A stretch of DNA of 64,000 nt from a virus. The notes below the pieces were generated by a model. The model saw only the letters and a program-made list of their open reading frames with translations, ran no database searches and was not told the DNA's origin. Within the stretch, counting starts at the first letter, position 1. Each line of letters begins with the position of its first letter. The translations under genes and the position numbers were made by a program. Shown here one piece after another: positions 14,372-39,050 of this stretch. The stretch lies in IMG/VR virus record IMGVR_UViG_3300045988_169095; one strand, written 5' to 3'.

Positions 14372-15406
14372 ATGATGCTGCCTGAAGGTTCAAGTCTCTC
14401 TAACTGGGAAAAACCAGGAGGCAAAACTGGTATGGTAGTTTTGGGTTTGTTAGGTGCAGGAGGGTTGATGCTTTTTTATAAAGCTCTTCCTTTCCTGATT
14501 ACTCTGGCATCTAATACACTGTACTTTGGGCTGCTCCTGGGATTAATTGCAGGAATTATCTATCTCCTGTGTGATCCCAAGTTCAGGAAAATCTGCTCTG
14601 CCACTTATTTTATGTTAATGAGAAAGCTGACTGGATTGGTTATTGAAATCGATCCTATTGCTATCGTGGAACAACGTATCCGTGATATGCAGAAAAAGTC
14701 AGCTGACATTAAAAAGGTAATGGGAGATCTCAGAGGTTGTATCATTCGTTCTAAGAACGATATTCAGAACGATACAAGGGAAATGCGTAATTGCATGGAT
14801 GAAGCACAAGTGTCTGAGCGTAATGGAAACATTGCAATGGCAACAATTCAAAAGCGCCAAGCACTTCGTCTTAAAGAATCGTTAGATGATCAGTTACTTG
14901 CTCTTAAGAACTCAGAAATGTGGTTTGATAAGCTTAAAAAGCTTGAAGAGTATGCTAATCTGACGATTCAGGATGTTACTAACGAAGTAAATATTCGTAA
15001 GAAAACATTCGAGCGCATTCGTGCCCAGCACAAAGCTTTCAAATCTGTAATGTCTATCGTTAAGGGAGACCCTGACGAATTGGCAATGTTCACTGATGCT
15101 ATGGATTTCATGGCAAAGGATATCTCGGATAAAATCGGAGAGATGGAACATGTCATTGACTCTACTACGGGTATGCTGGCTGACCTGGACGCAAAGAATG
15201 GTGTTGCCAATATGAGGGCAGAAGAATTGTTGGAACGATACAACAAGTCAGGAATTGACAGTCTCTTTAATAAGTTCTCTGATGGTCGTAAGGCTATCGC
15301 TGCACCGAAAGTAGGGGAGTATGTTCAGTTCCAAGAAATTCTCAAAGTCCCCGTAAATGGTAACGAAGCCGCTCCCAAGTCCCTCGACGATTTCTGGGGT
15401 GAGTAA
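14372..15406 (+). CDS. Membrane-anchored coiled-coil protein, possibly TelA/PspA-like.
   Basis: 344 aa. Two N-terminal TM helices followed by a long helical domain. Confidence 0.45.
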   Translation: MMLPEGSSLSNWEKPGGKTGMVVLGLLGAGGLMLFYKALPFLITLASNTLYFGLLLGLIAGIIYLLCDPKFRKICSATYFMLMRKLTGLVIEIDPIAIVEQRIRDMQKKSADIKKVMGDLRGCIIRSKNDIQNDTREMRNCMDEAQVSERNGNIAMATIQKRQALRLKESLDDQLLALKNSEMWFDKLKKLEEYANLTIQDVTNEVNIRKKTFERIRAQHKAFKSVMSIVKGDPDELAMFTDAMDFMAKDISDKIGEMEHVIDSTTGMLADLDAKNGVANMRAEELLERYNKSGIDSLFNKFSDGRKAIAAPKVGEYVQFQEILKVPVNGNEAAPKSLDDFWGE

Positions 15407-16142
15407 ATTCTTTCTGAATAATAGAAATATTGCTATATGTATTCTTCTGAATACTGTAGTGATATTTCTGTTGTCCTTTCATCGATTCCAACATGTCCTT
15501 TTGCCACTAGATGTGGCGTTTACCATATTCTTTATAATAGAGATGATTGTCAAGATTAGATGTCTTGGTAAATTATTCTTTAAGGATAAAGAATGTGTTT
15601 TTGATTTATTAATTGTTGTAGTTTCATCAATCCCATTATTTGGGTTATTCAGTTTAGATTGGATTCAAGTAATGCGATTGACTCGAATATTTAAGAGTCT
15701 TCGATTGTTTGAATTGATTCCTAATTACAAAAAATTACTCATCAATTTTAGGTTAGTAATTCGAAGTTGCATTGGAATCTTAGTAGGATTATCTATTTTG
15801 ATTTTTCTATTATCAATTATTCTGTCTTCTTTATATGGAAATATAGTTCCAGAGTATTTTGGAAATCCCCTTGAAAGTATTTATTCAGTTTTCCGATTGT
15901 TTTCTATTGAGGGTTGGTATGATATTCCAAATGCTATTGCTGAGCGTAGTTCCTATGTAATGGGATATTTATCTAAGTTTTTCTTATCAGGTATAGTTCT
16001 TGTTTTTGGTATATTCGGAATGGGATTTGTATCATCTATGTTTATTGATGAGGTAACTTCAGATAATAATGATGAAGTTCTACAACGATTAAGTAAGTTA
16101 GAAGAAATTTTAAAGAAAATACAAGAAAATGGCACAACTTAA
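15357..16142 (+). CDS. Voltage-gated cation-channel-like protein (6 TM, BacNaV/NaChBac-like).
   Basis: S1-S6 segments. S4 with Arg every third position (RLTRIFKSLRLF). Pore helix and filter FSIEGW. C-terminal coiled coil. The start may be GTG at 15398. Confidence 0.5.
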   Translation: MVTKPLPSPSTISGVSKFFLNNRNIAICILLNTVVIFLLSFHRFQHVLLPLDVAFTIFFIIEMIVKIRCLGKLFFKDKECVFDLLIVVVSSIPLFGLFSLDWIQVMRLTRIFKSLRLFELIPNYKKLLINFRLVIRSCIGILVGLSILIFLLSIILSSLYGNIVPEYFGNPLESIYSVFRLFSIEGWYDIPNAIAERSSYVMGYLSKFFLSGIVLVFGIFGMGFVSSMFIDEVTSDNNDEVLQRLSKLEEILKKIQENGTT

Positions 16143-17655
16143 GCCAGGATTCAAAGTAGTCCTGATCATGGTCGCTGTAATTGCAGCATTTTTCGTAATC
16201 AAAGCCGTCGTCCCTTCCTCCTCGTCGTCGGGGTCATCCTCTACTTCGGGTCTCGGCGACATCTTCGGAGGAAAACCGACCATCAACATCGGAGTTAACA
16301 CGTATGCGGGGTTCGCTCCCATCGTGTGGATTAATGGTGGTCTTCGTCCCAATGACGAGTCTATCCTGACTAAGGAGTATGGCATTCGTGCCAATATCAT
16401 TATCCAGGATGATTTTGTTGCTGGACGTAACGCTTTCCTGAATGGGGATATCGACCTTATTTATTGTACTACGGATGTATTGGCCGTAGAGATGGGTGAA
16501 GGTTCCGCAATGAACAGTGCTAAGTATGTAATGATGCTTAACCGTTCTCAGGGGGCAGATGCAATGGTAGTTACCAAGAATATTCGTACCGTTGCAGATC
16601 TTAAGGGTAAAAAGATTGCAGTAGCTGAAGGAACTGCATCTCATACTCTTCTTCTGAATATTCTTGAAACGAACGGGATCAGTCAGCATGACGTAACACT
16701 TGTGAAAGTTGATAACGGTGGTGCTGCAGCTGACACATTCAAAGCAGGTCAGGTAGATGCTTGTGTTACATGGGCACCTGATGACCAGGCTTGTGTAGAT
16801 GCTATTCCTGGTTCGAGAGTCCTCGTTTCAACCAAACATGCAAAAGACCTTGTAACAGATGGTCTTGTAGGAAAGGCAGAGTGGCTGGATAAGAATCATA
16901 ACGATGTTAAAAAACTTATTTCTGCAATTCTCTATGCTAATTCTACCCTGAATCAGAATCCGAATGCAGTGAAAGAAGCTTCGAAGATCTTCGCAAAGGC
17001 GTTTGGAACTGATCCTGAGTTTGCAGAATTGGGGTGTGGGAATATCTGGTTCGCTACTCTCGGTGATGAAGAAAATTTCTTTGGAATGACTTCCGATTAT
17101 ATGGGAATGAAGGCTGAAGAAATCTATTCAAAGATGGCTCGAACCTATGCTAGCCTTGGGCTTACTAAAAGTCCTCTGGGTTGGCGTAAAGTTTCCGACA
17201 TGTCGTTCATCGAGGAGCTTTCCAATGAGGGTACTGTACAAGGCAATCAGGCTCCTCAACCCGCAGTTAAGTTCTCTGCTGTAACATCAGAAGTCAGGGA
17301 AAAACAGGCAATTTCTAATAAGAAGTTGACTATTAATTTCCCTGTCAATGGTGACATCCTCGACAATGATGCTCGAGCTCTTATTGATCGAGAGTTTGTT
17401 CCGATTGCGAAGCAGTTCAACAATGCACGTGTTCGTATTGAAGGTAACACTGATAATACAGGTAATCGTGCGTACAACGAGTCTCTTTCATCTCGACGGG
17501 CTCAGGCTGTAGCTAATTATTTAATTAATGACTACGGTTTTGATCCCAATCGATTCATTATCGTTGGTAACGGTCCCAAGAATGCAATCCGTGATGGTGT
17601 GCAGGGTTCCAACATCAACTACCGAACAACTGATTTCATGCTCGTAACTGAGTAG
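16129..17655 (+). CDS. ABC-transporter substrate-binding protein (NMT1/SsuA/TauA family) fused to a C-terminal OmpA/MotB-like domain.
   Basis: N-terminal TM anchor, periplasmic binding fold, and a C-terminal NTDNTGNRAYNESLSSRRAQAV OmpA motif. Confidence 0.55.
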   Translation: MAQLKPGFKVVLIMVAVIAAFFVIKAVVPSSSSSGSSSTSGLGDIFGGKPTINIGVNTYAGFAPIVWINGGLRPNDESILTKEYGIRANIIIQDDFVAGRNAFLNGDIDLIYCTTDVLAVEMGEGSAMNSAKYVMMLNRSQGADAMVVTKNIRTVADLKGKKIAVAEGTASHTLLLNILETNGISQHDVTLVKVDNGGAAADTFKAGQVDACVTWAPDDQACVDAIPGSRVLVSTKHAKDLVTDGLVGKAEWLDKNHNDVKKLISAILYANSTLNQNPNAVKEASKIFAKAFGTDPEFAELGCGNIWFATLGDEENFFGMTSDYMGMKAEEIYSKMARTYASLGLTKSPLGWRKVSDMSFIEELSNEGTVQGNQAPQPAVKFSAVTSEVREKQAISNKKLTINFPVNGDILDNDARALIDREFVPIAKQFNNARVRIEGNTDNTGNRAYNESLSSRRAQAVANYLINDYGFDPNRFIIVGNGPKNAIRDGVQGSNINYRTTDFMLVTE

Positions 17656-17656
17656 T

Positions 17657-18493
17657 ATGCAGTTGTTCAAAATGGGTGGGACAATCACCTATAAACAAGC
17701 ATTGGCAACAGGTATCATAGGAGCAATAGTTCTGCTGCTCCTATGGTATCTAGTTACCATGTCAGGGGAAATCATTCGTCCTCAGATTTTACCGAATCCT
17801 ATAAATGTGCTCAAGGCATATCCAGATTTAATCTCTAACTCAGCCCTCTTTACCAATACTTGGTATACAATAAAGCTGAATCTTATGGGATATTTCTATG
17901 CTTTAATCATTGCAATCCCTTTGGGCCTTATTATAGGATTGTTTCCCGTTACTAAAGCGTTATTTGGCAAGTATTTTGATGCCCTTCGTTATCTCCCTAT
18001 ACCTGCAGTGTCTGGCATTTTTATCGCTGCTATAGGTATTGGATTCGATATGAAGGCTAGTTTTTTGGCTTTCGGCATTATTATTTACATTCTTCCTGTC
18101 GTTGTTCAACGAGTTTCCGAACTTCAGAATCCCGCTAATGATAAGGATTATGTGTATTTACAAACCATTTCAACGTTAGGTGCAACTAATTGGCAGAAAT
18201 TTCGATACGTTTATTTTCCTTATGTAATGCAGCGAGTTTCCACTGATGTCATTAATCTAACTGCTATTTCTTACACTTATATAGTGATTGCAGAAACCCT
18301 TAACAAGGAAGGTGGCATTGGTGCGCTGATAAACATAATGAGCAGACAGTCAAGAACTGCCGAAGTCTATGCACTTCTCTTCTTGATTATTGCTATTGGA
18401 ATTCTCCAAGATGTCCTTCTAAAGAAATTGGATGTTGTGCTCTTTCCTTCAAAGTACAATAAGCCATCCATCAAATCCAAAATAATGAAATAA
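17657..18493 (+). CDS. ABC-transporter permease (SsuC/TauC family).
   Basis: Six TM helices and an EAA-type loop (TLGATNWQKFRYVYFP). Confidence 0.6.
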   Translation: MQLFKMGGTITYKQALATGIIGAIVLLLLWYLVTMSGEIIRPQILPNPINVLKAYPDLISNSALFTNTWYTIKLNLMGYFYALIIAIPLGLIIGLFPVTKALFGKYFDALRYLPIPAVSGIFIAAIGIGFDMKASFLAFGIIIYILPVVVQRVSELQNPANDKDYVYLQTISTLGATNWQKFRYVYFPYVMQRVSTDVINLTAISYTYIVIAETLNKEGGIGALINIMSRQSRTAEVYALLFLIIAIGILQDVLLKKLDVVLFPSKYNKPSIKSKIMK

Positions 18494-18495
18494 GT

Positions 18496-19332
18496 ATGGG
18501 GCTCTTTGATGGTTTAACTGGATCCGTTCCAGTTCCCACATCTCGTTATGAGGCTGTGGATGTAATTAACTTGAAAAATCTTAACCAGTCTTTTGATACT
18601 CCTAAAGGAAAGTTCACTCTCTTTAAGGATTTTAGTCTGGATATAAAAGATTTCTCAGGAGAAGGGCAGTTTATCAGTATCTTAGGAAAGAGTGGTTGTG
18701 GTAAATCTCAGCTGCTCAAAATCATCTCTGGGCTTACACAGCCAGATTCAGGTGAAGTTCTTGTTTATGGGAAACCACAGACAGGAAAAATTCCTATGGT
18801 ATTTCAGCAGTATTCTTCATTTCCATGGATGTCAGTTCTTGACAATGTAAAACTTCCGCTCATACTTCGAGGAGTTTCTGATAAAGAAGCTACAGAGAGG
18901 GCTATGGAAATGATCAAAATTGTAGGTCTGGAAGGTAATGAAACTAAATGGGGTCAGTATCCTGTGTTATCGGGAGGACAGCTTCAACGAGTTTCAATGG
19001 CGCGAGCCCTGGTTGCAGATAACAAAATTCTTTTGTTAGATGAAGCCACTGGTGCATTAGATATTGTTATGAAACGAGAGATTCAGAACACCATTTTGGA
19101 TATCTATTATAACGCCAAATTCGATCCTACAATCCTCAATGTTACACATAGCATTGAGGAGGCTGTATATCTCTCAAATCGAATTTACATTTTAGCTCCT
19201 AATCCCTGTAAAGTTCAGGCTGTCATTGATGTTAACTTTGACGGTAGGAGAACGGATGCAATTCGTCAAACTACAGCATTTGCAAATTATGTGAAACAAG
19301 TAGAACAAGTAATGTCAGAAACACATGAGTAA
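18496..19332 (+). CDS. ABC-transporter ATP-binding protein.
   Basis: Walker A GKSGCGKS, signature LSGGQLQRV, Walker B LLLDEAT. Confidence 0.7.
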   Translation: MGLFDGLTGSVPVPTSRYEAVDVINLKNLNQSFDTPKGKFTLFKDFSLDIKDFSGEGQFISILGKSGCGKSQLLKIISGLTQPDSGEVLVYGKPQTGKIPMVFQQYSSFPWMSVLDNVKLPLILRGVSDKEATERAMEMIKIVGLEGNETKWGQYPVLSGGQLQRVSMARALVADNKILLLDEATGALDIVMKREIQNTILDIYYNAKFDPTILNVTHSIEEAVYLSNRIYILAPNPCKVQAVIDVNFDGRRTDAIRQTTAFANYVKQVEQVMSETHE

Positions 19333-23074: not shown

Positions 23075-23523
23075 CAGCAGTTATTTGATTACGCAACTAG
23101 GACAATAACAGCTTATGCACGAATGCGTCGTGACGATAGGCAGGTGATAGTGAGGAAGACTACCGTAGGAAATGACGGGGCAGACTGTAAAGTTCTATCC
23201 AGATACTTACCTCCAGCAGTGGCTAAAAGAGTATCATTTTTATTGAAATATTTTAATATATGGAAATTGTAAATATTATAGCAGCTTGTATAGTTGCTTA
23301 CTTTCTTCAACTTGGTATGGGTGCTGTATTGGGAACTAATCAAAATAAGTGGCTAAAGATTGGTTTTATTATTCCTGGTATTGGCCTCCTTGTACAGCTC
23401 GTATATTTATTTTATTGCGTGTTCTATATAATGTTTGATGAGGAGTAAGGCAATAAGGTGACATACAGCAATCTTTTTAAATTATTGCATTTGGGTAAAT
23501 ATGAACGTCACCTACCATTGATA

Positions 23524-23610: not shown

Positions 23611-24051
23611 ATGTATAAAATCTTACTTTGTTTACTTTTAGTATTTACTACTAATTATGGATATTCCCAATTAAAGTATAATCAAATAGATATCGAAATC
23701 GGGTTAAGTAGTAGTATTGATGAGCCACATATAAACATGTTATATGTTGGGGGAACTATTTATAATGCATATTTAGAGTTTCAAACCAATGCATTCACAA
23801 AAGGAATGGGATATAATAACATTATAGATATGAAAGCTATAAATGTTGGAGCTGCCTTCCCTATGTATCAAACTAATAAATTTTCATATATTATAACTCC
23901 TAAAATTGGTATATGGACTACTAATCCAAATACATATTTTTGTGGAGGATTGAATTTCAGTGTAGTATATAAGTTTATACGAATGTCTTTGCTTACAACA
24001 TTTGTAAGAAGTGAGCAATTTATAGGAATTGGCTTAGGAGTTTCATTATAA
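23611..24051 (+). CDS. Secreted or outer-membrane-like protein with a signal peptide.
   Basis: ATG at 23611, downstream of the tRNA. N-terminus MYKILLCLLLVF. Confidence 0.4.
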   Translation: MYKILLCLLLVFTTNYGYSQLKYNQIDIEIGLSSSIDEPHINMLYVGGTIYNAYLEFQTNAFTKGMGYNNIIDMKAINVGAAFPMYQTNKFSYIITPKIGIWTTNPNTYFCGGLNFSVVYKFIRMSLLTTFVRSEQFIGIGLGVSL

Positions 24052-24058
24052 GTCCAAT

Positions 24059-24133
24059 TGGGGTGTGGTGTAGTGGCGGCACGTTGGATTTTGATTCCAA
24101 AAGCATCCGTAGGTTCGATTCCTACCACCCCAA
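24059..24133 (+). tRNA. tRNA-Gln(TTG).
   Basis: Acceptor TGGGGTG/CACCCCA. Anticodon stem TTGGA/TCCAA with loop TTTTGAT. Confidence 0.55.
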
Positions 24134-24342
24134 CAATAATTAAAACAACAGTTATGATTTGGTATATTATTTTAGTAATTTTTATCATCTATCTTTTGGT
24201 AGTTTCAGGAATTATGTTTTTCTTTGCAACTAAGTTCGGATTGGTAAATACTATTGTTCAATGGGAAAAGAAAGATACTTTTTATATCTTTTGCCCCATT
24301 GTGCATTTATTTACATTGTACTATTTCTGGACTCTCAAATAG

Positions 24343-24416
24343 GACGCCTTGCCTGAATTGGTTAAAGGAGCTGCCTGCAAAGCAGTTTTGTGTGGGTTCG
24401 AGTCCTACAGGCGTCT
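24343..24416 (+). tRNA. tRNA-Cys(GCA).
   Basis: Acceptor GACGCCT/AGGCGTC. Anticodon loop CTGCAAA. Confidence 0.5.
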
Positions 24417-24425
24417 CAATACATT

Positions 24426-24498
24426 GCGAGGTAGACTGGAGATGGTCCCAGCTCGGTCTCATAAGCCGATCTACATGAGTTCGAATCTCATCCTCGCT
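24426..24498 (+). tRNA. tRNA-Met/Ile2(CAT), second copy.
   Basis: Anticodon stem TCGGT/GCCGA with loop CTCATAA. T-arm ATGAGTTCGAATCTCAT. Confidence 0.5.
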
Positions 24499-24586
24499 AC
24501 ATCTGTTATTTTTATAAGGTATCAAACAGCAAACCTTTTACAATCAAATAACTTTTAATCATTAAATGATGTAGGGATACCTTTCT

Positions 24587-24660
24587 GGAACATATGGTGT
24601 AATTGGCTAACATATCGCCCTGTCACGGCGAAGTTCGGGGTTCGAATCCCCTATGTTCCG
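24587..24660 (+). tRNA. tRNA-Asp(GTC).
   Basis: Acceptor GGAACAT/ATGTTCC. Anticodon stem TCGCC/GGCGA with loop CTGTCAC. Confidence 0.55.
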
Positions 24661-24674
24661 CAAAATTATGATTT

Positions 24675-25061
24675 ATGGATGTAAAATGGTTATCTGATAA
24701 GTCTTTTGTAGTTAAGGGTACTACATATACTGTACAGGTTCCTGTTACTTTAGAGGAGGCTTTGGAAGAGGCGCAAACTGCACTTTCCGAGATAAAAAAG
24801 AAAAAGGAGTATTATAAAGATTTATTGGAAAAACTAAATTTCTCTGATTCTTTTTTGAATAAAGCTCCTATCAAAGTAATAGTAGATAAAATTAAAATTG
24901 AGGAAGATACATATAAAATGTTATTCTTTCTTAATGAAGAAGAACATAAATATACCTTGCATTTAAAAATCATTTTAAGAGTACTTGATTTTGTTAACCT
25001 AGCATATCAGGAACTTGACTATAAAATGAGGTATAAATTAATTCCTGAAGATTTAGACTAA
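24675..25061 (+). CDS. Hypothetical protein.
   Basis: 128-aa ORF. Confidence 0.4.
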   Translation: MDVKWLSDKSFVVKGTTYTVQVPVTLEEALEEAQTALSEIKKKKEYYKDLLEKLNFSDSFLNKAPIKVIVDKIKIEEDTYKMLFFLNEEEHKYTLHLKIILRVLDFVNLAYQELDYKMRYKLIPEDLD

Positions 25062-25129
25062 ATGATAGGTGCTGATCCTTTATAAATGTGAAAGGCTCTC
25101 AAGATATATCTAAATAATAGGAATGATTC

Positions 25130-25218
25130 GGAGGGTTGTCAGAGTTGGTTTATTGTGTCACTCTTGAAAAGTGATGTACGTGATGAGCGTACCAGGGGTT
25201 CGAATCCCTTACCCTCCG
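25130..25218 (+). tRNA. tRNA-Ser(TGA), type II.
   Basis: Acceptor GGAGGGT/ACCCTCC. Anticodon stem TCACT/AGTGA with loop CTTGAAA. Long variable arm. Confidence 0.55.
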
Positions 25219-25290
25219 CGCGGTAGTAGTTCTTTGTGAAATTCTCTGCGGTATACAGTTAGTGGAAGCATAAAAGAATTTCACTTTAAG

Positions 25291-25361
25291 CACCTTTGGT
25301 GTAATTGGTAACACGATGGTCTCCAAAACCATAGTTTAGAGTTCAAGTCTTTAAGGGTGTG
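25291..25361 (+). tRNA. tRNA-Trp(CCA).
   Basis: Anticodon stem ATGGT/ACCAT with loop CTCCAAA. G73. Acceptor has G1.U72. Confidence 0.55.
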
Positions 25362-25419
25362 CATAGTTTTATTATTATTTATTACAAAGTCTCTTCAGCA
25401 AAATTTATAGCATGGGGGC

Positions 25420-25490
25420 ACTATGGTCACAGGTTCAATTCCTGTTTAATAGAAAAGTTCTATTAATAGCTCAGTTGGTAGAGCGATAGT
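25420..25490 (+). tRNA. Candidate circularly permuted tRNA. The 3' half (anticodon stem 3' strand ACTAT, variable loop, T-arm ACAGG-TTCAATT-CCTGT, acceptor 3' strand TTAATAG) at 25420-25452 precedes the 5' half (acceptor CTATTAA, D-arm TAGCTCAGTTGGTAGAGC, anticodon stem 5' strand ATAGT) at 25460-25490.
   Basis: The two halves are perfectly complementary in the 7-nt acceptor and the 5-nt anticodon-stem strands. No T-arm lies downstream of the 5' half. Confidence 0.45.
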
Positions 25491-25512
25491 TAATATAATA
25501 GAGACTTTTTAT

Positions 25513-25588
25513 CAGAGTGTAGCCCAGCTAGGTCTAAGGCGCGTGCTTTGGGAGCACGAATTCGCAGGTTCGAATCCTGTCACTCTGA
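25513..25588 (+). tRNA. tRNA-Pro(TGG).
   Basis: Acceptor CAGAGTG/CACTCTG. Anticodon stem CGTGC/GCACG with loop TTTGGGA. Confidence 0.55.
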
Positions 25589-25603
25589 CTATAATTCAAA
25601 ATT

Positions 25604-26179
25604 ATGAATAAAATTGACAAATATTTAAGAAGGTTTGCATACAAAATTGAAACCTCTGAGACAAAGGAATCTAGGTATTATACTATTGGGGATTTAATCG
25701 TTAGAGTATCTAATCATATTGGGAAAAATTCTTCTGGGAATATATCAATAATTATTGACAGAAATAATTATATACTTTATGTTCCATCAACTAATAAAGT
25801 AAGTCTTATTTCTTATGAGGAGTGTAAAACTTTAATCAGAGGTATTGTATTACATGCTTCTTTATTTTTGGTTGGAGATTCTACATATCAAAAAAGTCTT
25901 GTTAAGGAGAATGAAGAGTTAAAACTTCAGATTAGTAATTTAAAGCAGAAAATAAATATTCAGGAAAGACAATTAATTCCGAAGAAAAAACCAAATGATA
26001 CGTCTATCAAAGTAATTCGAGCTATTTTAATAAATTTAGAAAAGTGCAAAAAGAAAAAAATTAAAGTTAAGTATGGCTCTTGTGAATTTCAAACGTTACC
26101 TGACAGTACGATTTATGAAATTTGGAAAGATCCAGAAATTCGAAAATATGTTAAAGAACTTAAAATTAATTTAATATGA
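25604..26179 (+). CDS. Hypothetical protein.
   Basis: 191-aa ORF. Confidence 0.45.
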   Translation: MNKIDKYLRRFAYKIETSETKESRYYTIGDLIVRVSNHIGKNSSGNISIIIDRNNYILYVPSTNKVSLISYEECKTLIRGIVLHASLFLVGDSTYQKSLVKENEELKLQISNLKQKINIQERQLIPKKKPNDTSIKVIRAILINLEKCKKKKIKVKYGSCEFQTLPDSTIYEIWKDPEIRKYVKELKINLI

Positions 26180-26961
26180 AATTAAATGTATTACTCGCAA
26201 AACTGGAGCAGGGTGCTTCCCAGTTTAAAGCTCTCCTTCGAGATTATACAACCTTCTTTAAGAAGGAGTCAGACAACTTTCGAGGTGTTAAAAATACCTA
26301 CGAACCTCGTCCTGACACTGTAGATCTTCCCAGTGAACGTAAACTCATTGCGGTTGTAACAACAGTTGATGAGAAATTCGATTATTTCACTGATATGGTA
26401 AAAAACTATATCAGGGAGATGTTCAATTGTGAAGCAACTAATGCATCGGGAACTGCTCGTGCAGATCTGGTTGTGGATGGTAATGTAATTGCTAATCTGA
26501 GCAGTCTGGAGCTTCTTAAGCTCAAGTCATTTCTGGAAAATCCTCAGCTTCAGGAGATGTTCCAGAACATTCCCGTTCGTAAAGATTCTGAGATCTGGGA
26601 ACCATGTACTGAAGAAATGTATGCAGGTCGAGCAATTATGCAGTCTCCCCTTCTGAAAGGTACTAAAAAGTCTATCACTAAGACTCAGTACATTTTGGAA
26701 GATCCGAATGTTCAGAAGCTCGGCAGTGCAACTCACTATCAGCCCCAAATTGCAGTAAAAGATACTGTGATGGAACTGGGTGATTATACCATGCAGCGTT
26801 TCTCTGGTGAGTGGACCCCTCGTCAGCGAGCATTAGCTCTTCAGCGTAGAAGTACTCTTCTGTCAGCAACTATTGCTGCACTGAAAGTAGCAAATGAGGT
26901 AGAAGCAGTAAAATCCAATCTGGATTCAGAATGGCTGCTGAACTATCTCCAAGGTAGGTAA
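26176..26961 (+). CDS. Hypothetical protein, GC-rich.
   Basis: 261-aa ORF. Confidence 0.45.
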   Translation: MKLNVLLAKLEQGASQFKALLRDYTTFFKKESDNFRGVKNTYEPRPDTVDLPSERKLIAVVTTVDEKFDYFTDMVKNYIREMFNCEATNASGTARADLVVDGNVIANLSSLELLKLKSFLENPQLQEMFQNIPVRKDSEIWEPCTEEMYAGRAIMQSPLLKGTKKSITKTQYILEDPNVQKLGSATHYQPQIAVKDTVMELGDYTMQRFSGEWTPRQRALALQRRSTLLSATIAALKVANEVEAVKSNLDSEWLLNYLQGR

Positions 26962-27127
26962 TAAAACAAACAAAATATTTGACGATAGACTTAGCTTCAG
27001 ACTTAGACTAAGTAGCAAAGAACTGTAATATCCTAGATAAATTACAAGGAGCTACATAAGATTTAGTGTCGCGTCAAAAGCTTTAGTCTCAAGTTAATAA
27101 GGATGTGCTAATTCACTAATAAAAAAA

Positions 27128-27211
27128 TCATAAGACTGGGGGTTCGAGTCCCCCATTCGCCGCTAATTAAATCACTATATGGCGAATTGGAGAAATGGTT
27201 AACTCGTATGA
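27128..27211 (+). tRNA. Candidate circularly permuted tRNA. The 3' half TCATA-AGACT-GGGGG-TTCGAGT-CCCCC-ATTCGCC-G at 27128-27162 precedes the 5' half GGCGAAT-TG-GAG..CTC-G-TATGA at 27181-27211.
   Basis: Acceptor 7/7 complementary (ATTCGCC vs GGCGAAT). Anticodon-stem strands TCATA/TATGA complementary. An 18-nt linker lies between the halves. Confidence 0.45.
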
Positions 27212-27296
27212 ATACAATAAATTAAAGTGAGTTAGATGCACATTATCGTACAATATTTAAGAATACTGTAATTCATCAATGAAGGGGAAGTAAGCG

Positions 27297-27401
27297 GGCC
27301 ATGCTTGCTTCTCCATTTTATGGCCCTGTAAGCAAAGTGGTAAAGCTGCTTATATATTCTAGGTTCATAAGTGTGTGGAGGTTCGAGTCCTTCCATGGCC
27401 A
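27297..27401 (+). tRNA. tRNA-like element with an unresolved intervening body. Acceptor strands GGCCATG/CATGGCC are about 93 nt apart. The 3' part TCATA-AGTGTGT-GGAGG-TTCGAGT-CCTTC resembles the 3' half at 27128.
   Basis: Canonical T-arm and acceptor pairing, but the D-arm and anticodon arm cannot be placed canonically. Possible intron or rearrangement. Confidence 0.3.
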
Positions 27402-27500
27402 CGTGGTTTCATATTTAATTTGTTTTTAAGAAGAGGTAACTTACAGCAAATTTAAGTATAATTCGTCTGTTAATTATTCATAGTTACCTAGTTTTAAGGA

Positions 27501-27597: not shown

Positions 27598-27659
27598 ATA
27601 TATAAAATAAAGTTATTATCTTTGTAACACAAGGTTACTTCAGCAAGCTTCTTCTACTG

Positions 27660-27760
27660 AATTGTATTTTGTTGAACAGCGATCTGGGTTCGAGTCCCAG
27701 TTATAGGAAACTTCAGGGCTGAGAAGTACTATAGTCGTCTAATGGTAGGATGTAAATTAG
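27660..27760 (+). tRNA. tRNA half-elements in a non-canonical arrangement. A T-arm CTGGG-TTCGAGT-CCCAG plus 3' acceptor-like GTTATAG at about 27676-27698 is followed downstream by a D-arm-like segment ACTATAGTCGTCTAATGGTAGGA at about 27731-27755. Possibly a third permuted tRNA.
   Basis: CTATAGT (27732-38) can pair with GTTATAG (27691-97) only by allowing two G.U pairs. Weaker than the other two loci. Confidence 0.25.
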
Positions 27761-27779
27761 AGTAACCTAGCCCATTTTT

Positions 27780-28329: not shown

Positions 28330-28543
28330 CACAACTAGGATTTGTAGTGAAATGTAAAGCCGAGAGTGCGGTATGGACATTGCAGGCTCTGATATGAAGG
28401 CACTCTAATCTATCAGTATTAGTCCAGAGATCAGAAATGATTCAAAGCGAAAATTTCATAGTTGTGTTTTTACAAGGTCTCTTACAGCAACCTTTATTTA
28501 GCAATAGACTTTTAATCTACGTAGCTTTATAGAGACCTTTTAT

Positions 28544-28615
28544 GAGGTATTGGTGTTAGTGATAGCATATGTGACTTCCAATCACAAGGGGAGAGTTTGA
28601 ATCTCTTATACCTCT
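28544..28615 (+). tRNA. tRNA-Gly(TCC).
   Basis: Acceptor GAGGTAT/ATACCTC. Anticodon stem TGTGA/TCACA with loop CTTCCAA. Confidence 0.55.
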
Positions 28616-30256: not shown

Positions 30257-30322
30257 ATATAAAGTAGCATACAGCAAATTTAAAACTTATAATATTGGTA
30301 AATTATAAATTGCTACTTTTAT

Positions 30323-30614: not shown

Positions 30615-30700
30615 CTAATAGGCTACATACAGCAATTAGCTTCTTAATGTATTTTTTGGATGATAGTGTAGCCTTTCTTTGAAATTAATTATTACAAAAT

Positions 30701-33483: not shown

Positions 33484-35175
33484 ATGTTTGAAGCAAAAAA
33501 GAAAACATTATTTGCTGTTGATAGCAGTAAATCGGCATCTAAATCAGCCTTTATTCAGGCAGGATTAAAAACTGCAGCAGAAACCACTACAGGTAACGGT
33601 GGTAAAGCCTATTCCAGTACAGGGGATCCCTTCGTTGACCAGTTTGGTAGTACATCTAAGTACAGAGAGATTCGCCCATTTGCAGAAATTGCAAAAGATT
33701 GTGAAATTCTCTGGGCAGAAAATAAAGAAGATACTGTTAAATTTATCTTTTTCTTGCGAATGATTTGTCGTAAGATTAATGATAAAGAGTATGGTACCAA
33801 AGAAGCACAGAAGGGTTCTGAACTTCGTCATGAAGGTATTATGCGTCTCATCTGGCTGCATATCAAAGATAAAGAAGTGTTCTGGAAGAATGCTTGGTTG
33901 ATTCCCTTAGTGGGTTCTTGGAAAGATCTCTTCGTTATGCTTCGTTATGACTTAGTTTATAACGGCTGGGAACACCGAGTTCTGGATTGGCGCCGTTTTG
34001 CAGATCTGATTACTGCTGGCCTTAGTTCTGATTCCCAAACGAATCTTCTTCGTAAGTATCTTCCTCAGATCAAGGCACGTTCCAAGTGTACTACAGTAGA
34101 GGCACAAGCAAATTGTATGATTGCAAAATGGCTGTGTTCAGAACTTTACGGTGCGTCAGGAGCAAAGACAGATGCTGAAAAGTATCAGGTATATCGTTCT
34201 TATGCAAAGATGAAAGCCGCAGGGACAGCACATAGCTGGCAACAGCTTATTTCAAAGCAACGATATACAGAGATTGACTTTGATAAGATTCATGGTCGTG
34301 CCTTAAACCTTCTTGTACACTCCAAGTTCTTAGAGAATCATAATCTCAAAGAGAAGTATCAGGAATGGATAGGAGCTCCAGAGACAAAGAAGGTGAAGTA
34401 CACAGGTTTTGTACATGAGCTCTTTAAACCTATTTGTAACACTGCTCCTTATAATATAGAGCAGCATATCAAAGATACTATTAATAAGCAGTTTATGACT
34501 CTTGTTAATAAGTGTAAGGAAGAGGGCAATACTACAGATCTAATTGTAGTACGTGATACTTCTGGTTCAATGGGTGCAGAAGCAACTGGAACTTCCATGT
34601 CTTGTTACAATGTAGGTAAGGCAATTGCTCTGTATTTCTCTTACTTCTTGAGAGGAAGGTTTCAAAATGCATGGATTGAGTTCAACTCGAAAGCTATGAT
34701 GCATGAGTGGAAAGGAGAAACTCCTCTGGAAAAATGGTTTAATGACCATTCAGGGTACTATGGAAGTACAAACTTTGAGGGTGTTATTAACCTCTTTACT
34801 CAGTTGAAACTTGAAGGTGTTCCAGAAGAGGAATTTCCTAAAGGAATTCTTTGTATCAGTGATTGTGAGTTTGATGCTTCAAGTCTGAATAAGACTTCAG
34901 TTGAAAGAGTTCATGATACATTGACAGCTGCAGGATTTTCTAAAGAGTATGTTGATAATTTTGTCATTTGCCTTTGGAATTTGAGAAATGATTACTACGG
35001 ATATAATGTACAAAATCGTGTTCCATTCCAAACTTATGGTGACGTCAAGAATGTCTACTATATGTCTGGATATTCAGCACAGATTGTATCTTTCTTAAAT
35101 AGGAAGGTGCAGACTACACGGGATCTGTTTGATGAGGCTATGAATCAAGAGATTCTGTCTCTCATTAAGATGTAA
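33484..35175 (+). CDS. Large protein with a C-terminal vWA-like MIDAS motif. Possibly a DUF2828-like family member.
   Basis: 563 aa. MIDAS motif DTSGSMG. GC-rich. Confidence 0.45.
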   Translation: MFEAKKKTLFAVDSSKSASKSAFIQAGLKTAAETTTGNGGKAYSSTGDPFVDQFGSTSKYREIRPFAEIAKDCEILWAENKEDTVKFIFFLRMICRKINDKEYGTKEAQKGSELRHEGIMRLIWLHIKDKEVFWKNAWLIPLVGSWKDLFVMLRYDLVYNGWEHRVLDWRRFADLITAGLSSDSQTNLLRKYLPQIKARSKCTTVEAQANCMIAKWLCSELYGASGAKTDAEKYQVYRSYAKMKAAGTAHSWQQLISKQRYTEIDFDKIHGRALNLLVHSKFLENHNLKEKYQEWIGAPETKKVKYTGFVHELFKPICNTAPYNIEQHIKDTINKQFMTLVNKCKEEGNTTDLIVVRDTSGSMGAEATGTSMSCYNVGKAIALYFSYFLRGRFQNAWIEFNSKAMMHEWKGETPLEKWFNDHSGYYGSTNFEGVINLFTQLKLEGVPEEEFPKGILCISDCEFDASSLNKTSVERVHDTLTAAGFSKEYVDNFVICLWNLRNDYYGYNVQNRVPFQTYGDVKNVYYMSGYSAQIVSFLNRKVQTTRDLFDEAMNQEILSLIKM

Positions 35176-35362: not shown

Positions 35363-35663
35363 AGAGATGATTCTTAAGAGTATTTAGAAGGTTTAATGAA
35401 CCATCAACTGATAGTTCAAAAGAATTTCCTAAAAAAGTAATTGACTTAGAACAATTTGACGATGTATTCATAGTTACTAATAAAAAAGTATATAAGGCCT
35501 GGGTTATGAAAAGAACCAGTAGACTTTTACAGATTTTTATTTGGGAGTCTAAAAAGGAGGTAATTATAAATACAATTGGACAAGCTAATTCTAGTGTTAT
35601 TCCTTTTGGCAAGGATAGCTATTTAATTATAAATAAAAAAGATATATGCGATTACTTGTAGTA
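35359..35663 (+). CDS. Hypothetical protein (about 100 aa) with TGA=Trp at codon 4.
   Basis: Open only if TGA is sense. Overlaps the start of the following gene. Confidence 0.3.
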
Positions 35664-36227
35664 GTTGATATGCAAGAAGACTTCATCAGAGGTGCATTAA
35701 CGGTTCCTGGTGCTGAAGAAATAATTTCTCCTATAGAGAAATTAGTTAAAGAGTATATAACAGCAGATGATGCTGTCCTTTTTACTCGGGATACTCATTA
35801 TGAGCATAGTGATACTAGGGGATTTAGCTATGCTATGACTCGTGAAGGTAGAAATCTTCCAATTCTTCATTGCGTTTGTGGAACTGAAGGTCATAAGCTT
35901 ATTAAGGAATTTAAGCCTTATCTTCGTTCCTGCTATGTAATGGATAAACTAAATAGGTTTGGATTTATCCAGGATGAGTTTAATGATGCCAAGATAGATG
36001 ATGGAGAATATTTATTCGACATCGCTGATTGCATTACAGAAATTACTTTGGTTGGTGTAGTAACTAATCTTTGTGTTATTTCATGTGCTGTAAGTTTTCA
36101 GCAAATATTCCCTGATGCAGATATCATCATAGATGCTTCCTGCTGTCGTTCCAATAACAATGAACTTCATAACAAAGCTTTAGATGTTATGGAGGGTTTA
36201 CAAATGACTATAATTAATCGTTATTAA
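35646..36227 (+). CDS. Isochorismatase-family hydrolase, nicotinamidase (PncA)-like.
   Basis: N-terminal LLVVDMQEDF and cysteine-hydrolase fold length. Confidence 0.55.
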   Translation: MRLLVVVDMQEDFIRGALTVPGAEEIISPIEKLVKEYITADDAVLFTRDTHYEHSDTRGFSYAMTREGRNLPILHCVCGTEGHKLIKEFKPYLRSCYVMDKLNRFGFIQDEFNDAKIDDGEYLFDIADCITEITLVGVVTNLCVISCAVSFQQIFPDADIIIDASCCRSNNNELHNKALDVMEGLQMTIINRY

Positions 36228-39049: not shown

Positions 39050-39050
39050 T

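What the first reader, a model, noticed from the sequence alone, without database searches (positions are those of the whole stretch)
25420..25490. Circularly permuted tRNA gene: 3' half directly upstream of its own 5' half
The upstream piece (T-arm ACAGG-TTCAATT-CCTGT, acceptor 3' strand TTAATAG) and the downstream piece (acceptor 5' strand CTATTAA, canonical D-arm TAGCTCAGTTGGTAGAGC, anticodon-stem strand ATAGT) are perfectly complementary in both stems (TTAATAG/CTATTAA, ACTAT/ATAGT). They are separated by only 7 nt. No T-arm follows the 5' half and no acceptor 5' strand precedes the 3' half. Permuted tRNA genes are known in a red alga and a few archaea, where they are processed through a circular intermediate. 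I am not aware of any in phages.
Basis: seen in the sequence. Interest (0 to 1): 0.9.

Follow-up and report, generated by a model that had tools for sequence, protein, structure and literature searches.

The report
Phage tRNA-mimic Y RNA, not permuted tRNA
The "back-to-front tRNA" is real and conserved, but it is the tRNA-shaped module of a small phage non-coding RNA of the Y-RNA/YrlA type, the likely partner of a Ro60-like protein encoded 8 kb away, and not a gene for a working tRNA.

Summary
At 25420-25490 a T arm plus acceptor 3' strand sits 7 nt upstream of the matching acceptor 5' strand plus D arm. No conventional tRNA can be parsed there. Re-permuted in silico, the halves make a canonical tRNA body.

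The interpretation does not hold. The halves lie inside a 123-nt unit (25386-25508) closed by a 9-bp terminal helix, with a conserved TCAGCAA motif beside its 5' strand. No anticodon loop with U33 and no bulge-helix-bulge can be formed. This is the T arm / closed acceptor stem / D arm layout of bacterial and phage YrlA Y RNAs. Rfam YrlA is the best non-tRNA hit there, though below its curated threshold.

The window encodes a Ro60-fold protein (33484-35175, DUF2828/DUF7788). In 25 of 44 distant phage loci, homologous units lie within 1 kb of that gene on the same strand. Ten orthologous variants show compensatory changes in all seven acceptor pairs.

The window holds two more tRNA-like units and six short stem+ACAGCAA units. 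All but one lie immediately 5' of tRNA genes.

Verdict: a new variant of a known kind. The short units resemble Dictyostelium Class I RNAs; this lead is untested.

The parts
25386..25508 (+). Complete unit 1: a Y-RNA-like ncRNA carrying the tRNA-like module. This is the real extent of the finding.
   Evidence: Covariance model R1 scores it 107.7 bits, E 1e-17, though it is a seed member. RNAfold gives the terminal helix plus T, acceptor and D hairpins at -30.4 kcal/mol, z = -2.9. Rfam YrlA scores 30.6 bits over 25400-25511.
25386..25394 (+). Terminal (closing) helix, 5' strand AAAGTCTCT.
   Evidence: Perfect 9-bp complement of 25500-25508. Invariant among clade orthologues. It covaries across the wider family: all 8 modelled pairs show changes on both sides.
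25395..25401 (+). Conserved single-stranded motif TCAGCAA (family consensus (U/A)ACAGCAA). Proposed protein-binding site.
   Evidence: C, G, C, A and A of the motif (positions 11 and 13-16 of the unit) are at least 90% conserved in the 39-sequence seed alignment. It occupies the same place as the GNCGAA motif of YrlA (PMC4201824) but has a different sequence.
25420..25428 (+). ACTAT (pairs with ATAGT at 25486-90) plus GGTC, the variable-region equivalent, with C48 next to the T stem.
   Evidence: In the L001 variant the helix is ATTGT/ACAAT, which is compensated. It is poorly conserved family-wide, at 48% paired.
25429..25445 (+). T arm: ACAGG TTCAATT CCTGT.
   Evidence: Two of 5 pairs carry compensatory changes among orthologues. 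99% of cells pair across 62 family members.
25446..25466 (+). Closed 'acceptor' stem-loop: TTAATAG, 7-nt loop AAAAGTT, CTATTAA.
   Evidence: 7 of 7 pairs. All seven pairs show compensatory double changes among 10 flank-defined orthologues. 95.5% paired family-wide.
25467..25485 (+). U8-A9 equivalents, D arm GCTC AGTTGGTA GAGC, and the G26 equivalent.
   Evidence: A14, G15 and G18G19 are present, and C48, T54-T55-C56 and A58 are present in the T-side half. The tRNA elbow contacts are therefore possible, read from the sequence against the standard tRNA numbering.
25486..25508 (+). ATAGT, the 9-nt 3' linker TAATATAAT, and the terminal helix 3' strand AGAGACTTT.
25290..25362 (+). tRNA-Trp(CCA), upstream neighbour.
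   Evidence: 59 bits.
25513..25589 (+). tRNA-Pro(UGG), starting 4 nt after the unit. RNase P cleavage at its 5' end would set the unit's 3' end.
   Evidence: 58 bits. No promoter-like or terminator-like site lies on the + strand between the two tRNAs.
27632..27768 (+). Unit 2: terminal helix AGGTTACT/AGTAACCT, TCAGCAA, a T arm, an acceptor stem closed by a 20-nt loop that is itself a hairpin, and a D arm. It lies 11 nt before tRNA-Asn.
   Evidence: R1 scores it 82.3 bits. It is conserved in L005, L006, L012 and L020 with changed acceptor sequences.
27078..27237 (+). Unit 3: T arm GGGGG/CCCCC, acceptor ATTCGCC/GGCGAAT closed by a 19-nt loop, and a D arm. The 5' motif is variant (TCTCAAG).
   Evidence: R1 scores it 48.3 bits, E 1e-6, and it was not in the seed. 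Relatives show compensated acceptor changes (L015, L017, L022).
23456..23513 (+). Short unit: 7-bp terminal helix plus ACAGCAA, no tRNA-like module. It lies 9 nt before tRNA-Ile.
24516..24583 (+). Short unit, 3 nt before tRNA-Asp.
27434..27489 (+). Short unit, 11 nt before tRNA-Lys.
28474..28539 (+). Short unit, 4 nt before a tRNA that Rfam calls at 28544-28615.
30261..30319 (+). Short unit, 3 nt before tRNA-Ala.
   Evidence: (29 bits).
30620..30674 (+). Short unit, directly after tRNA-Phe.
33484..35175 (+). Gene for a 563-aa Ro60-fold protein (helical ring plus vWA domain; DUF7788, with a weak DUF2828 match). Proposed protein partner of the units.

Best explanation
The locus encodes a roughly 123-nt non-coding RNA of the Y-RNA-like (YrlA-type) kind.

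Shown: its 5' and 3' ends pair in a 9-bp helix. A conserved single-stranded TCAGCAA motif sits at the inner end of that helix's 5' strand. The body is a tRNA mimic made of a T arm, a 7-bp 'acceptor' stem closed by a 7-nt loop, and a D arm, with the nucleotides for the tRNA elbow contacts in place. There is no anticodon loop.

Inferred:
- The RNA is transcribed as part of the phage tRNA island and released by ordinary tRNA processing, namely 3' maturation of tRNA-Trp upstream and RNase P cleavage at tRNA-Pro 4 nt downstream.
- The helix-plus-motif end is bound by the phage's Ro60-fold protein (33484-35175).
- The tRNA-shaped end is presented to something that recognises tRNAs. Candidates are host tRNA-modifying or processing enzymes, a 3'-5' exonuclease such as PNPase (as in Ro60/Y RNA/PNPase complexes), or a host tRNA-targeting defence factor for which it acts as a decoy.
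- Because the acceptor stem has the full 7 bp, RNase P may also cut the loop at 25459/25460 to give a two-piece RNA, as reported for Mycobacterium smegmatis YrlA.
For: 1. Architecture. Rfam YrlA is the best non-tRNA match over the whole unit. It also hits homologous units in four distant loci at 33-46 bits, E down to 3.5e-7. The terminal helix and the three tRNA-like hairpins fold as expected, z = -2.9.

2. Structure is selected.
- Ten orthologues were defined only by their flanks, not by pairing. In them 99.2% of cells pair, 10 pairs carry double changes including all 7 acceptor pairs, and 0 of 500 shuffles reach this.
- At least five different acceptor/T-stem sequences occupy the same locus in phages whose Ro-like proteins are 85-99% identical.
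- Family-wide (62 distinct sequences) the T, acceptor and D helices pair in 99, 95.5 and 91.5% of cells, with a covariation score of 0.71 against 0.20 when shuffled.

3. Protein partner. The window encodes a Ro60-fold protein.

4. Genomic linkage.
- Model R1 finds 63 matches in 52 sources, all on the strand of the Ro-like gene.
- 33 of 44 distant loci (39-57% protein identity) have a unit.
- 25 of 44 have one within 1 kb of the gene, typically 200-500 nt downstream. These include loci with no tRNA genes at all.
- In the cultured Leptolyngbya phage Lbo-JY46, units fill the unannotated gap right after the gene.

5. Precedent. YrlA RNAs next to Ro60 occur in more than 250 bacteria and phages. M. 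smegmatis YrlA, which has a 7-bp acceptor, is cut by RNase P and receives CCA (PMC4201824). A phage Ro60 binds two phage Y-like RNAs and host PNPase (PMC12135203).

6. Processing context. No promoter-like or terminator-like site lies between the flanking tRNAs. Seven of the eight units carrying the CAGCAA motif in the window end 3-11 nt before a tRNA.
Against: - The Rfam YrlA score (30.6 bits) is far below the curated cut-off of 69. In relatives the match is largely confined to the tRNA-like part.
- The YrlA 5' motif GNCGAA is replaced by CAGCAA.
- In this window the Ro-like gene is 8 kb away, not adjacent.
- The protein is DUF2828/DUF7788. No TROVE match appeared in the Pfam scan at E<=0.01.
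- No expression, binding or processing data exist for this RNA. The partner and the role of the tRNA-like end are inferred from linkage and homology only.
- The T and acceptor pairings in the wider seed set were partly selected by my own search pattern.
Confidence: 0.78

Rival explanations
1. A genuine circularly permuted tRNA gene. The transcript would be circularised or cut and re-joined at the anticodon side, then opened at the acceptor ends to give a functional tRNA.
For: The two halves are in permuted order and are perfectly complementary. Re-permuted with an artificial loop they score as a canonical tRNA. The acceptor loop starts with a purine, like a discriminator base. A few distant family members encode N-CCA right after the acceptor 3' strand (L035, L067).
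Against: - No 7-nt anticodon loop with U33 can be assembled from the flanks, read directly from the sequence.
- There is no bulge-helix-bulge. The flanks instead form a 9-bp terminal helix with a 25/9-nt asymmetric interior.
- The 'anticodon' helix is not conserved in the family, and some members lack it altogether.
- The loop-side flanks differ freely between close orthologues.
- Bacteria lack the splicing endonuclease that this pathway needs (established knowledge), and none was seen in the ORFs scanned.
- Units with the same ends but no tRNA-like body exist in the same arrays.
Confidence: 0.03
2. A functionless remnant: two tandem copies of one tRNA gene that lost the outer halves, or a recombination scar.
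For: This is the simplest way to generate a 3' half followed by a 5' half. [quoted passage not shown] One relative (L017) carries a 75-nt deleted version.
Against: - Compensatory substitutions maintain every helix across orthologues and across a family spanning proteins as low as 39% identical.
- The conserved terminal helix and motif lie outside the tRNA-like part.
- The units are tightly linked to the Ro-like gene.
- The module is not a near copy of any of 531 bona fide tRNAs in the loci.
Confidence: 0.02
3. A cis-acting leader or processing element of the tRNA precursor. The stem plus ACAGCAA would guide cleavage or stabilise the downstream tRNA, independently of the Ro-like protein.
For: In this window and its clade, seven of the eight units carrying the CAGCAA motif sit 3-11 nt upstream of a tRNA gene.
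Against: In distant phages the same units form arrays next to the Ro-like gene, in loci where ARAGORN finds no tRNA genes. A tRNA-shaped module is not needed for a leader. One window unit follows a tRNA rather than preceding one.
Confidence: 0.1
4. A two-piece tRNA-like RNA that is cut in the acceptor loop, receives CCA and is charged, acting on the ribosome like a permuted (two-piece) tmRNA.
For: It has a 7-bp acceptor plus T arm, the minimal RNase P substrate. M. smegmatis YrlA is cut and CCA-tailed (PMC4201824). Some relatives encode CCA. Unit 3 gets a very weak permuted-tmRNA hit of 11 bits, E 8.8.
Against: ARAGORN finds no tmRNA. There is no G3:U70 pair and no tag reading frame. No CCA is encoded in this window's unit. 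The Rfam tmRNA hits are insignificant.
Confidence: 0.07

Closest known systems
YrlA (Y RNA-like, Rfam RF02553) of Salmonella Typhimurium, Mycobacterium smegmatis and mycobacteriophages (Chen et al. 2014, PMC4201824; structure preprint 10.1101/312249)
   Same: - A terminal helix joins the 5' and 3' ends.
- A conserved motif sits at the inner end of the 5' strand.
- The tRNA-like domain is in the order T arm, closed acceptor-like stem-loop, D arm, with the tRNA elbow nucleotides present.
- It is encoded with a Ro60-type protein.
- The 7-bp acceptor matches that of the M. smegmatis RNA.
   Different: - The motif is (U/A)ACAGCAA, not GNCGAAN0-1G.
- It scores 30-46 bits against a gathering score of 69.
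- The partner protein is DUF2828/DUF7788 with a Ro60 fold and gave no TROVE match in the Pfam scan.
- In this phage the RNAs are scattered through a tRNA island, each just 5' of a tRNA, 6-8 kb from the protein gene.
- They occur alongside short units that lack the tRNA-like module.
Yrl1/Yrl2 and phiRo60 of Thermus phage phiLo (PMC12135203; PDB 9KOP, 9L5Y)
   Same: A phage-encoded Ro60-fold protein, which is the best structural match to the window's protein, with two or more Y-like RNAs encoded beside it. A stem-bulge-stem layout carrying a short conserved motif.
   Different: The phiLo RNAs carry a CGAA motif, and the passages of that paper I read do not mention a tRNA-like domain. The proteins share only about 13% identity in the structural alignment.
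Circularly permuted tRNA genes of Cyanidioschyzon merolae and some other algae and archaea
   Same: The 3' half lies upstream of the 5' half on one strand. A short linker joins the acceptor ends. The halves are fully complementary.
   Different: Those genes encode an anticodon loop split at a bulge-helix-bulge, and they yield mature, charged tRNAs through a circular intermediate. Here there is no anticodon loop and no BHB, the host domain is wrong for the enzymes, and the ends are closed by a long helix carrying a protein-binding-type motif.
Dictyostelium Class I RNAs (Rfam RF01414; PMC7919456)
   Same: This applies to the short units and to the ends of the tRNA-like units.
- A 5' start of AAG/AGG.
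- A 6-9-bp terminal helix whose structure, not sequence, is kept.
- An adjacent ...UUACAGCAA motif that matches the conserved positions of the 11-nt Class I motif.
- An A-rich 3' segment.
- In distant phages, a CUG after the helix (alignment).
   Different: - The hits are sub-threshold: at most 37.3 bits against 41.5, with none in this window at E<=1.
- Class I RNAs are eukaryotic, have their own promoter element, and are reported as absent outside Dictyostelia.
- Their known direct binder is an RRM protein.
Phage T4 stable RNAs species 1 and 2 (rnaC, rnaD) inside the tRNA gene cluster (from memory, not checked here)
   Same: Small stable RNAs of unknown function, co-transcribed with phage tRNAs and released by tRNA-processing enzymes.
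   Different: No sequence or structural comparison was made here. T4 is not known to me to encode a Ro-like protein.

Membership tests
Circularly permuted tRNA gene | The 3' half (T arm plus acceptor 3' strand) lies upstream of the 5' half (acceptor 5' strand plus D arm) on the same strand, joined by a short linker. | tested here: met
   The linker is 7 nt.
Circularly permuted tRNA gene | The re-permuted halves form a canonical cloverleaf body. | tested here: met
   ARAGORN calls a 72-nt tRNA when an artificial 7-nt loop is supplied.
Circularly permuted tRNA gene | A 7-nt anticodon loop with U33 is encoded, split between the two outer flanks. | tested here: not met
   Every split of TAATATA... 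and ...TGGGGGC gives A or G at position 33 (sequence). The flanks are not conserved between orthologues.
Circularly permuted tRNA gene | A bulge-helix-bulge motif is formed by leader and trailer at the processing junction. | tested here: not met
   The fold shows a 9-bp terminal helix and a 25/9-nt asymmetric interior. No 3-nt/4-bp/3-nt arrangement is present.
Circularly permuted tRNA gene | A splicing endonuclease and ligase are available, with a circular intermediate and a mature charged tRNA as products. | not testable with these tools
   None was found among 30 ORFs scanned against Pfam. The scan was not exhaustive. The RNA products need experiments.
YrlA / bacterial Y RNA (RF02553) | A tRNA-like domain in the order T arm, closed acceptor-like stem-loop, D arm. 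| tested here: met
   Covariation is shown.
YrlA / bacterial Y RNA (RF02553) | Nucleotides for the tRNA tertiary contacts (U8, A14, G15:C48, G18G19, T54-psi55-C56, A58). | tested here: met
   Read from the sequence: TA before the D stem, D loop AGTTGGTA, GGTC before the T stem, T loop TTCAATT.
YrlA / bacterial Y RNA (RF02553) | A long stem joins the 5' and 3' ends, with a large internal loop. | tested here: met
   9 bp, 25386-94 with 25500-08. All 8 pairs covary across the family.
YrlA / bacterial Y RNA (RF02553) | A GNCGAAN0-1G motif in the 5' strand (the Ro60-binding module). | tested here: not met
   The sequence at the equivalent place is TCAGCAA. The family consensus is ACAGCAA.
YrlA / bacterial Y RNA (RF02553) | Reaches the Rfam gathering score of 69 bits. 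| tested here: not met
   30.6 bits in the window. 33-46 bits in relatives. No match at gathering threshold in 14 loci.
YrlA / bacterial Y RNA (RF02553) | Encoded near a Ro60 orthologue. | tested here: met
   A Ro60-fold gene lies 8 kb downstream in the window. Units lie within 1 kb of the gene in 25 of 44 distant loci, always on the same strand. The protein belongs to DUF2828/DUF7788, not a canonical TROVE family.
YrlA / bacterial Y RNA (RF02553) | Bound by Ro60 in vivo, and modified by tRNA enzymes (TruB, DusA). | not testable with these tools
   Needs RIP/EMSA and modification mapping.
Dictyostelium Class I RNA (RF01414) | 42-65 nt long, with a short terminal stem, an adjacent 11-nt motif (conserved U3, C6, C9, A10, A11) and conserved ends AAG...CUGU. 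| tested here: inconclusive
   The short units of the window (55-68 nt) have AAG/AGG starts, 7-9-bp stems and (U)ACAGCAA. Distant units align to the model end to end. The unit under study is 123 nt. No hit reaches the gathering score of 41.5, and none appears in the window at E<=1.
Permuted (two-piece) tmRNA | An alanine-identity G3:U70 acceptor, an encoded CCA, a tag reading frame and pseudoknots. | tested here: not met
   ARAGORN finds no tmRNA. Acceptor pair 3:70 is A-T. No CCA is encoded. Rfam gives no tmRNA hit on unit 1.

The most novel reading that the evidence does not exclude
The stem-plus-ACAGCAA RNAs of these phages would be the same RNA class as the Class I RNAs of dictyostelid amoebae. 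That covers both the short 55-70-nt units and the ends of the tRNA-like units. The class as a whole would be the RNA ligand of DUF2828-type Ro60-fold proteins.

If so, it would give the Dictyostelium RNAs a Ro/Y-RNA-like mechanism. They are abundant and developmentally regulated, are reported as unique to Dictyostelia, and have no understood mechanism. It would also extend the Ro60/Y RNA partnership to a second, much larger protein family spread across phages, bacteria and eukaryotes.

One of the four proteins pulled down with a Class I RNA, DDB_G0281243, is of unknown function (preprint 10.1101/2020.04.05.026054). I could not check whether it is a DUF2828/Ro-like protein.
Probability: 0.2. 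Interest if true: 0.85.

Novelty: new variant of a known kind. Interest (0 to 1): 0.55.

Why it matters
- **Annotation.** tRNA finders miss these modules, and a reader working from sequence alone takes them for permuted or broken tRNAs. This window has three such modules and six short relatives inside one tRNA island.
- **A large uncurated family.** The work points to Y-like RNAs that no Rfam model captures at its curated threshold. They are tied to a Ro60-fold protein family (DUF2828/DUF7788) that is almost unstudied: five passing mentions in the searchable literature. The protein is very widespread in phages, with 1619 homologues at E<=1e-3 and 230 GenBank phage records.
- **A possible conflict signature.** The tRNA-shaped module changes its helices, with compensation, between phages that are otherwise nearly identical. 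This is the pattern expected for a molecule involved in a conflict or in specific mimicry. It makes testable the open question of what the tRNA-like end of Y RNAs is for.
- **A testable lead.** The resemblance to Dictyostelium Class I RNAs, if real, would link two fields.

Tried and rejected
1. Conventional tRNA at the locus. ARAGORN and the Rfam tRNA model find none.
2. Second copies of either half elsewhere in the window (a split-tRNA idea). Each half occurs only once.
3. Near-identical phage in GenBank. Megablast of 24000-27000 finds nothing.
4. Sequence match of the 563-aa protein to PDB chains. There is none. The Ro60 relationship shows only by fold and by distant tblastn.
5. Module copied from a neighbouring tRNA. 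The best local scores are 18-22 of 31-35 positions, which are just the generic D and T arms.
6. Promoter or terminator between the flanking tRNAs. None on the + strand.
7. Rfam at gathering threshold on 14 related loci. No YrlA and no Class I hit.
8. Permuted tmRNA for unit 3. 11 bits, E 8.8; rejected.
9. Whether Dictyostelium DDB_G0281243 is a DUF2828 protein. The AlphaFold-database fold library was unavailable. The term appears in only one paper. The supplements hold nothing. The 2011 pull-down paper is not held.
10. Integration scar or att duplication. Rejected because the order (3' half, then 5' half, 7 nt apart) is the opposite of what integration into a tRNA gene leaves, and because of the covariation.
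11. One R1 match, the weakest, is a true tRNA-tRNA dimer (L050 12667-12759, over tRNA-Glu and a suppressor tRNA). This is the false-positive type that Chen et al. warned about. It does not affect the counts materially.
Full report
**1. The observation**

Going 5' to 3' on the + strand:
- ACTAT (25420-24) and GGTC (25425-28)
- a T arm, ACAGG TTCAATT CCTGT (25429-45)
- TTAATAG (25446-52), seven bases AAAAGTT (25453-59), then CTATTAA (25460-66)
- TA (25467-68) and a textbook D arm, GCTC AGTTGGTA GAGC (25469-84)
- G (25485) and ATAGT (25486-90)

TTAATAG/CTATTAA and ACTAT/ATAGT are perfect complements.

ARAGORN finds 27 tRNAs in the window but nothing between tRNA-Trp (25290-25362) and tRNA-Pro (25513-25589). 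The Rfam tRNA model has no match there even at E<=10.

I joined the 5' half to the 3' half around an arbitrary 7-nt loop. ARAGORN then called a canonical 72-nt tRNA, whereas the native order gives nothing. A tRNA body in permuted order is therefore really encoded.

It is not an artefact. The identical core is present in several other contigs. A variant with compensated helices is present in four separate sequencing runs and one IMG/VR metagenome contig.

**2. What surrounds it**

The two halves are the middle of a larger unit, 25386-25508.
- AAAGTCTCT (25386-94) pairs perfectly with AGAGACTTT (25500-08), so the RNA's ends are closed by a 9-bp helix.
- Immediately after the 5' strand comes TCAGCAA (25395-25401).
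- RNAfold returns the terminal helix plus the T, acceptor and D hairpins at -30.4 kcal/mol, z = -2.9.

An Rfam scan of the region gave YrlA as its best non-tRNA hit (apart from a minus-strand match lying over tRNA-Ser). YrlA (RF02553) is the 'Y RNA-like' tRNA mimic. The hit covers the whole model over 25400-25511 at 30.6 bits, E 2.2e-4. That is significant for the region but far below the curated cut-off of 69.

YrlA RNAs are partners of bacterial Ro60. They consist of a terminal stem carrying the Ro60-binding motif and a tRNA-like domain in the order T arm, closed acceptor-like stem-loop, D arm (PMC4201824). That is exactly the 'permuted' order seen here.

**3. Why it is not a permuted tRNA gene**

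- A permuted tRNA gene must encode the anticodon loop, split between its two outer flanks. Here the 5' half is followed by TAATATA... and the 3' half is preceded by ...TGGGGGC. Every way of building a 7-nt loop from these puts A or G at position 33, where tRNAs have U.
- The flanks do not form a bulge-helix-bulge. They form an asymmetric 25/9-nt interior closed by the long terminal helix.
- The flanks differ freely among close orthologues.
- Across the family the 'anticodon' helix pairs in only 48% of cells, against 99, 95.5 and 91.5% for the T, acceptor and D helices. Some members lack it entirely (L035/L067).
- No splicing endonuclease or RNA ligase turned up among 30 larger ORFs scanned against Pfam. 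That scan was not exhaustive.

**4. The protein partner**

ORF 33484-35175 (563 aa) matches DUF7788, matches DUF2828 weakly, and matches PHROG 850 'RNA-binding protein'. It has no sequence match in the PDB.

An AlphaFold model built from 34 homologues has pLDDT 81.
- In Foldseek its only two significant, full-length matches are the Thermus phage Ro60 (9KOP) and human Ro60 (9NEN).

By tblastn it is 24% identical over about 95% of its length to mycobacteriophage proteins annotated 'Ro-like RNA binding protein'. It is also related to 'DUF2828' proteins of Bacillus and Listeria phages, and phages of Staphylococcus and Enterococcus are among the 230 records hit.

**5. Linkage of RNA and protein**

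I fetched loci around 69 homologues of this protein. A pattern scan found modules of T arm, closed 7-bp acceptor and D arm that do not overlap ARAGORN tRNAs.

In distant phages these share one architecture, in this order:
- a terminal helix 5' strand
- (U/A)ACAGCAA
- a linker
- GUC, then the T arm
- an acceptor hairpin with a loop of 3-26 nt
- UA, then the D arm
- an A-rich linker
- the terminal helix 3' strand
- often GAUAAG

The units are frequently in tandem.

I built a covariance model from 39 of them (R1).
- It finds 63 matches at E<=1e-3 in 52 sources, all on the strand of the Ro-like gene.
- Of 44 loci outside the window's clade (39-57% protein identity), 33 have a unit.
- 25 of the 44 have one within 1 kb of the gene, mostly 200-500 nt downstream. 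Fifteen of the loci with units have no tRNA gene at all.
- In the cultured Leptolyngbya phage Lbo-JY46, units fill the unannotated 390-nt gap right after the gene.

The Rfam YrlA model hits the tRNA-like units of four distant loci at 33-46 bits, E down to 3.5e-7. It never reaches threshold, and in three of the four it matches only the tRNA-like part of the model.

**6. Evidence that the structure is selected**

The T and acceptor pairings in the seed set were partly imposed by my own pattern. To avoid that bias, I took orthologues of unit 1 defined only by the flanking string AGTCTCTTCAGCAA.

Ten distinct full-length variants exist, plus one 75-nt deletion derivative (L017). On their alignment 99.2% of cells pair. 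Ten pairs have changes on both sides: all seven acceptor pairs, two T pairs and one D pair. None of 500 shuffles and none of the slid controls comes close.

At least five different acceptor/T-stem combinations occupy the same locus in phages whose Ro-like proteins are 85-99% identical:
- TTAATAG/CTATTAA
- TTATTAG/CTAATAA
- CCAATAG/CTATTGG
- CTGGGTA/TACTCAG
- CCAACTG/CAGTTGG

None of the modules is a near copy of any of 531 real tRNAs in the loci. The module therefore evolves quickly while its shape is preserved.

**7. The rest of the window**

R1 and a motif scan show that unit 1 is one of a set.
- Unit 2 (27632-27768, 82 bits) and unit 3 (27078-27237, 48 bits, with a variant motif) also carry tRNA-like modules.
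- Six short units of 55-68 nt have only a 7-9-bp terminal helix, ACAGCAA and a weakly structured interior: 23456-23513, 24516-24583, 27434-27489, 28474-28539, 30261-30319 and 30620-30674.
- Seven of the eight units that carry the CAGCAA motif end 3-11 nt before a tRNA gene.
- No promoter-like or terminator-like site separates unit 1 from its flanking tRNAs.

The likely route to the mature RNA is therefore co-transcription with the tRNAs and release by tRNA-processing enzymes. This is inference.

**8. How it most likely works**

Shown:
- the fold
- its conservation
- the Ro60 fold of the protein
- the genomic linkage

Inferred from the Ro60/Y RNA literature (PMC4201824, PMC12135203):
- The terminal helix with the CAGCAA motif binds the Ro-like ring.
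- The tRNA-shaped end recruits or distracts something that recognises tRNAs. Candidates are PNPase, tRNA enzymes, or a host tRNA-targeting defence.
- The 7-bp acceptor makes cleavage by RNase P at 25459/25460 plausible, as in M. smegmatis YrlA.
- The rapid, compensated turnover of the acceptor and T stems hints at specificity or conflict, but this is speculation.

**9. Comparison and novelty**

The kind is known: phage and bacterial Ro60 with tRNA-like Y RNAs. This instance fails two YrlA membership criteria, the GNCGAA motif and the Rfam threshold. Its partner belongs to a different, almost unstudied family. I therefore class it as a new variant of a known kind, not as a member of RF02553 and not as a permuted tRNA.

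**10. A side observation**

In the distant loci the short units, and the ends of the long ones, are hit repeatedly by the Rfam model for Dictyostelium Class I RNAs. The scores reach 37.3 bits against a cut-off of 41.5, with E 3e-5 in a 1-kb search.

The alignment matches every defining feature given in PMC7919456: a G-initiated 6-bp terminal stem, the adjacent ..UUACAGCAA motif, an A-rich 3' part, and CUG after the stem.

No hit reaches threshold, and none appears in this window. The resemblance may be convergent.

Class I RNAs are reported as unique to Dictyostelia and their mechanism is unknown. One protein pulled down with them, DDB_G0281243, is uncharacterised (10.1101/2020.04.05.026054). 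I could not establish whether it is a DUF2828/Ro-like protein.

Noticed in passing
Unit 2 has an acceptor stem closed by a 20-nt loop that is itself a hairpin. Unit 3 has a GC-rich T arm, a 19-nt loop and a variant 5' motif (TCTCAAG). Both are conserved with compensated changes in relatives.
   Followed up: partly
window 23456-23513, 24516-24583, 27434-27489, 28474-28539, 30261-30319, 30620-30674: Six short (55-68 nt) stem+ACAGCAA units without a tRNA-like body. Five lie 3-11 nt upstream of a tRNA gene and one directly follows tRNA-Phe. The layout suggests release by RNase P and other tRNA-processing enzymes.
   Followed up: partly
L032 13521-14084; L027 12059-12369; L051 11815-11867; L070 (PP438436) 5661-6019: Arrays of short units next to the Ro-like gene resemble Dictyostelium Class I RNAs (RF01414, up to 37.3 bits against a gathering score of 41.5). 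They share the same terminal stem, the UUACAGCAA motif, an A-rich 3' part and a CUG end. Class I RNAs are reported as absent outside Dictyostelia.
   Followed up: partly
window 27322-27402, 48348-48438 and 13074-13147: ARAGORN calls a tRNA with a CUA anticodon (amber suppressor, labelled Pyl), one with a UCA anticodon (opal suppressor, labelled SeC), and one with an odd 2-nt anticodon call. These suggest stop-codon reassignment or suppressor use by this phage. The ORFs I used nevertheless read through normally with the standard code.
   Followed up: no
window 28544-28615: A tRNA found by Rfam (49.7 bits) that ARAGORN missed.
   Followed up: no
window 35646-43537: A block of auxiliary metabolic genes lies downstream of the Ro-like gene: isochorismatase, NAMPT/NAPRTase, NAD synthase, adenylosuccinate synthetase, and an IMPDH/GMP-reductase-family protein (42476-43537). 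IMP dehydrogenase (GuaB) was one of the four proteins pulled down with a Dictyostelium Class I RNA. This may be coincidence.
   Followed up: no
window 45881-46339: An ORF with a cREC_REC domain ('cyclic-phosphate processing receiver'). The family name points to RNA-end processing, and from memory it is linked to RNA-repair systems. That would fit a tRNA/RNA damage-response theme for this region.
   Followed up: no
window 14372-19332: The phage carries transporter-like genes: an ion-transport protein, a fusion of a periplasmic substrate-binding domain with an OmpA-like domain, an ABC permease and an ABC ATPase.
   Followed up: no
window 56347-57069; L069 12540-12755: A LAGLIDADG-type homing endonuclease ORF in the window. 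In a distant relative, a group I intron (92 bits) lies about 500 nt downstream of the tRNA-like unit.
   Followed up: no
L017 1507-1581: A 75-nt deletion derivative of unit 1. It keeps the terminal helix and motif but has lost most of the tRNA-like module, which shows the module can be lost in a close relative.
   Followed up: no
L035 10571-10634; L067 1190-1255 and 1442-1506: In some distant units the acceptor 3' strand is followed by N-CCA and then a T-rich or A/T-rich spacer. This looks like an encoded tRNA 3' end and suggests that these members are cut into two pieces.
   Followed up: no
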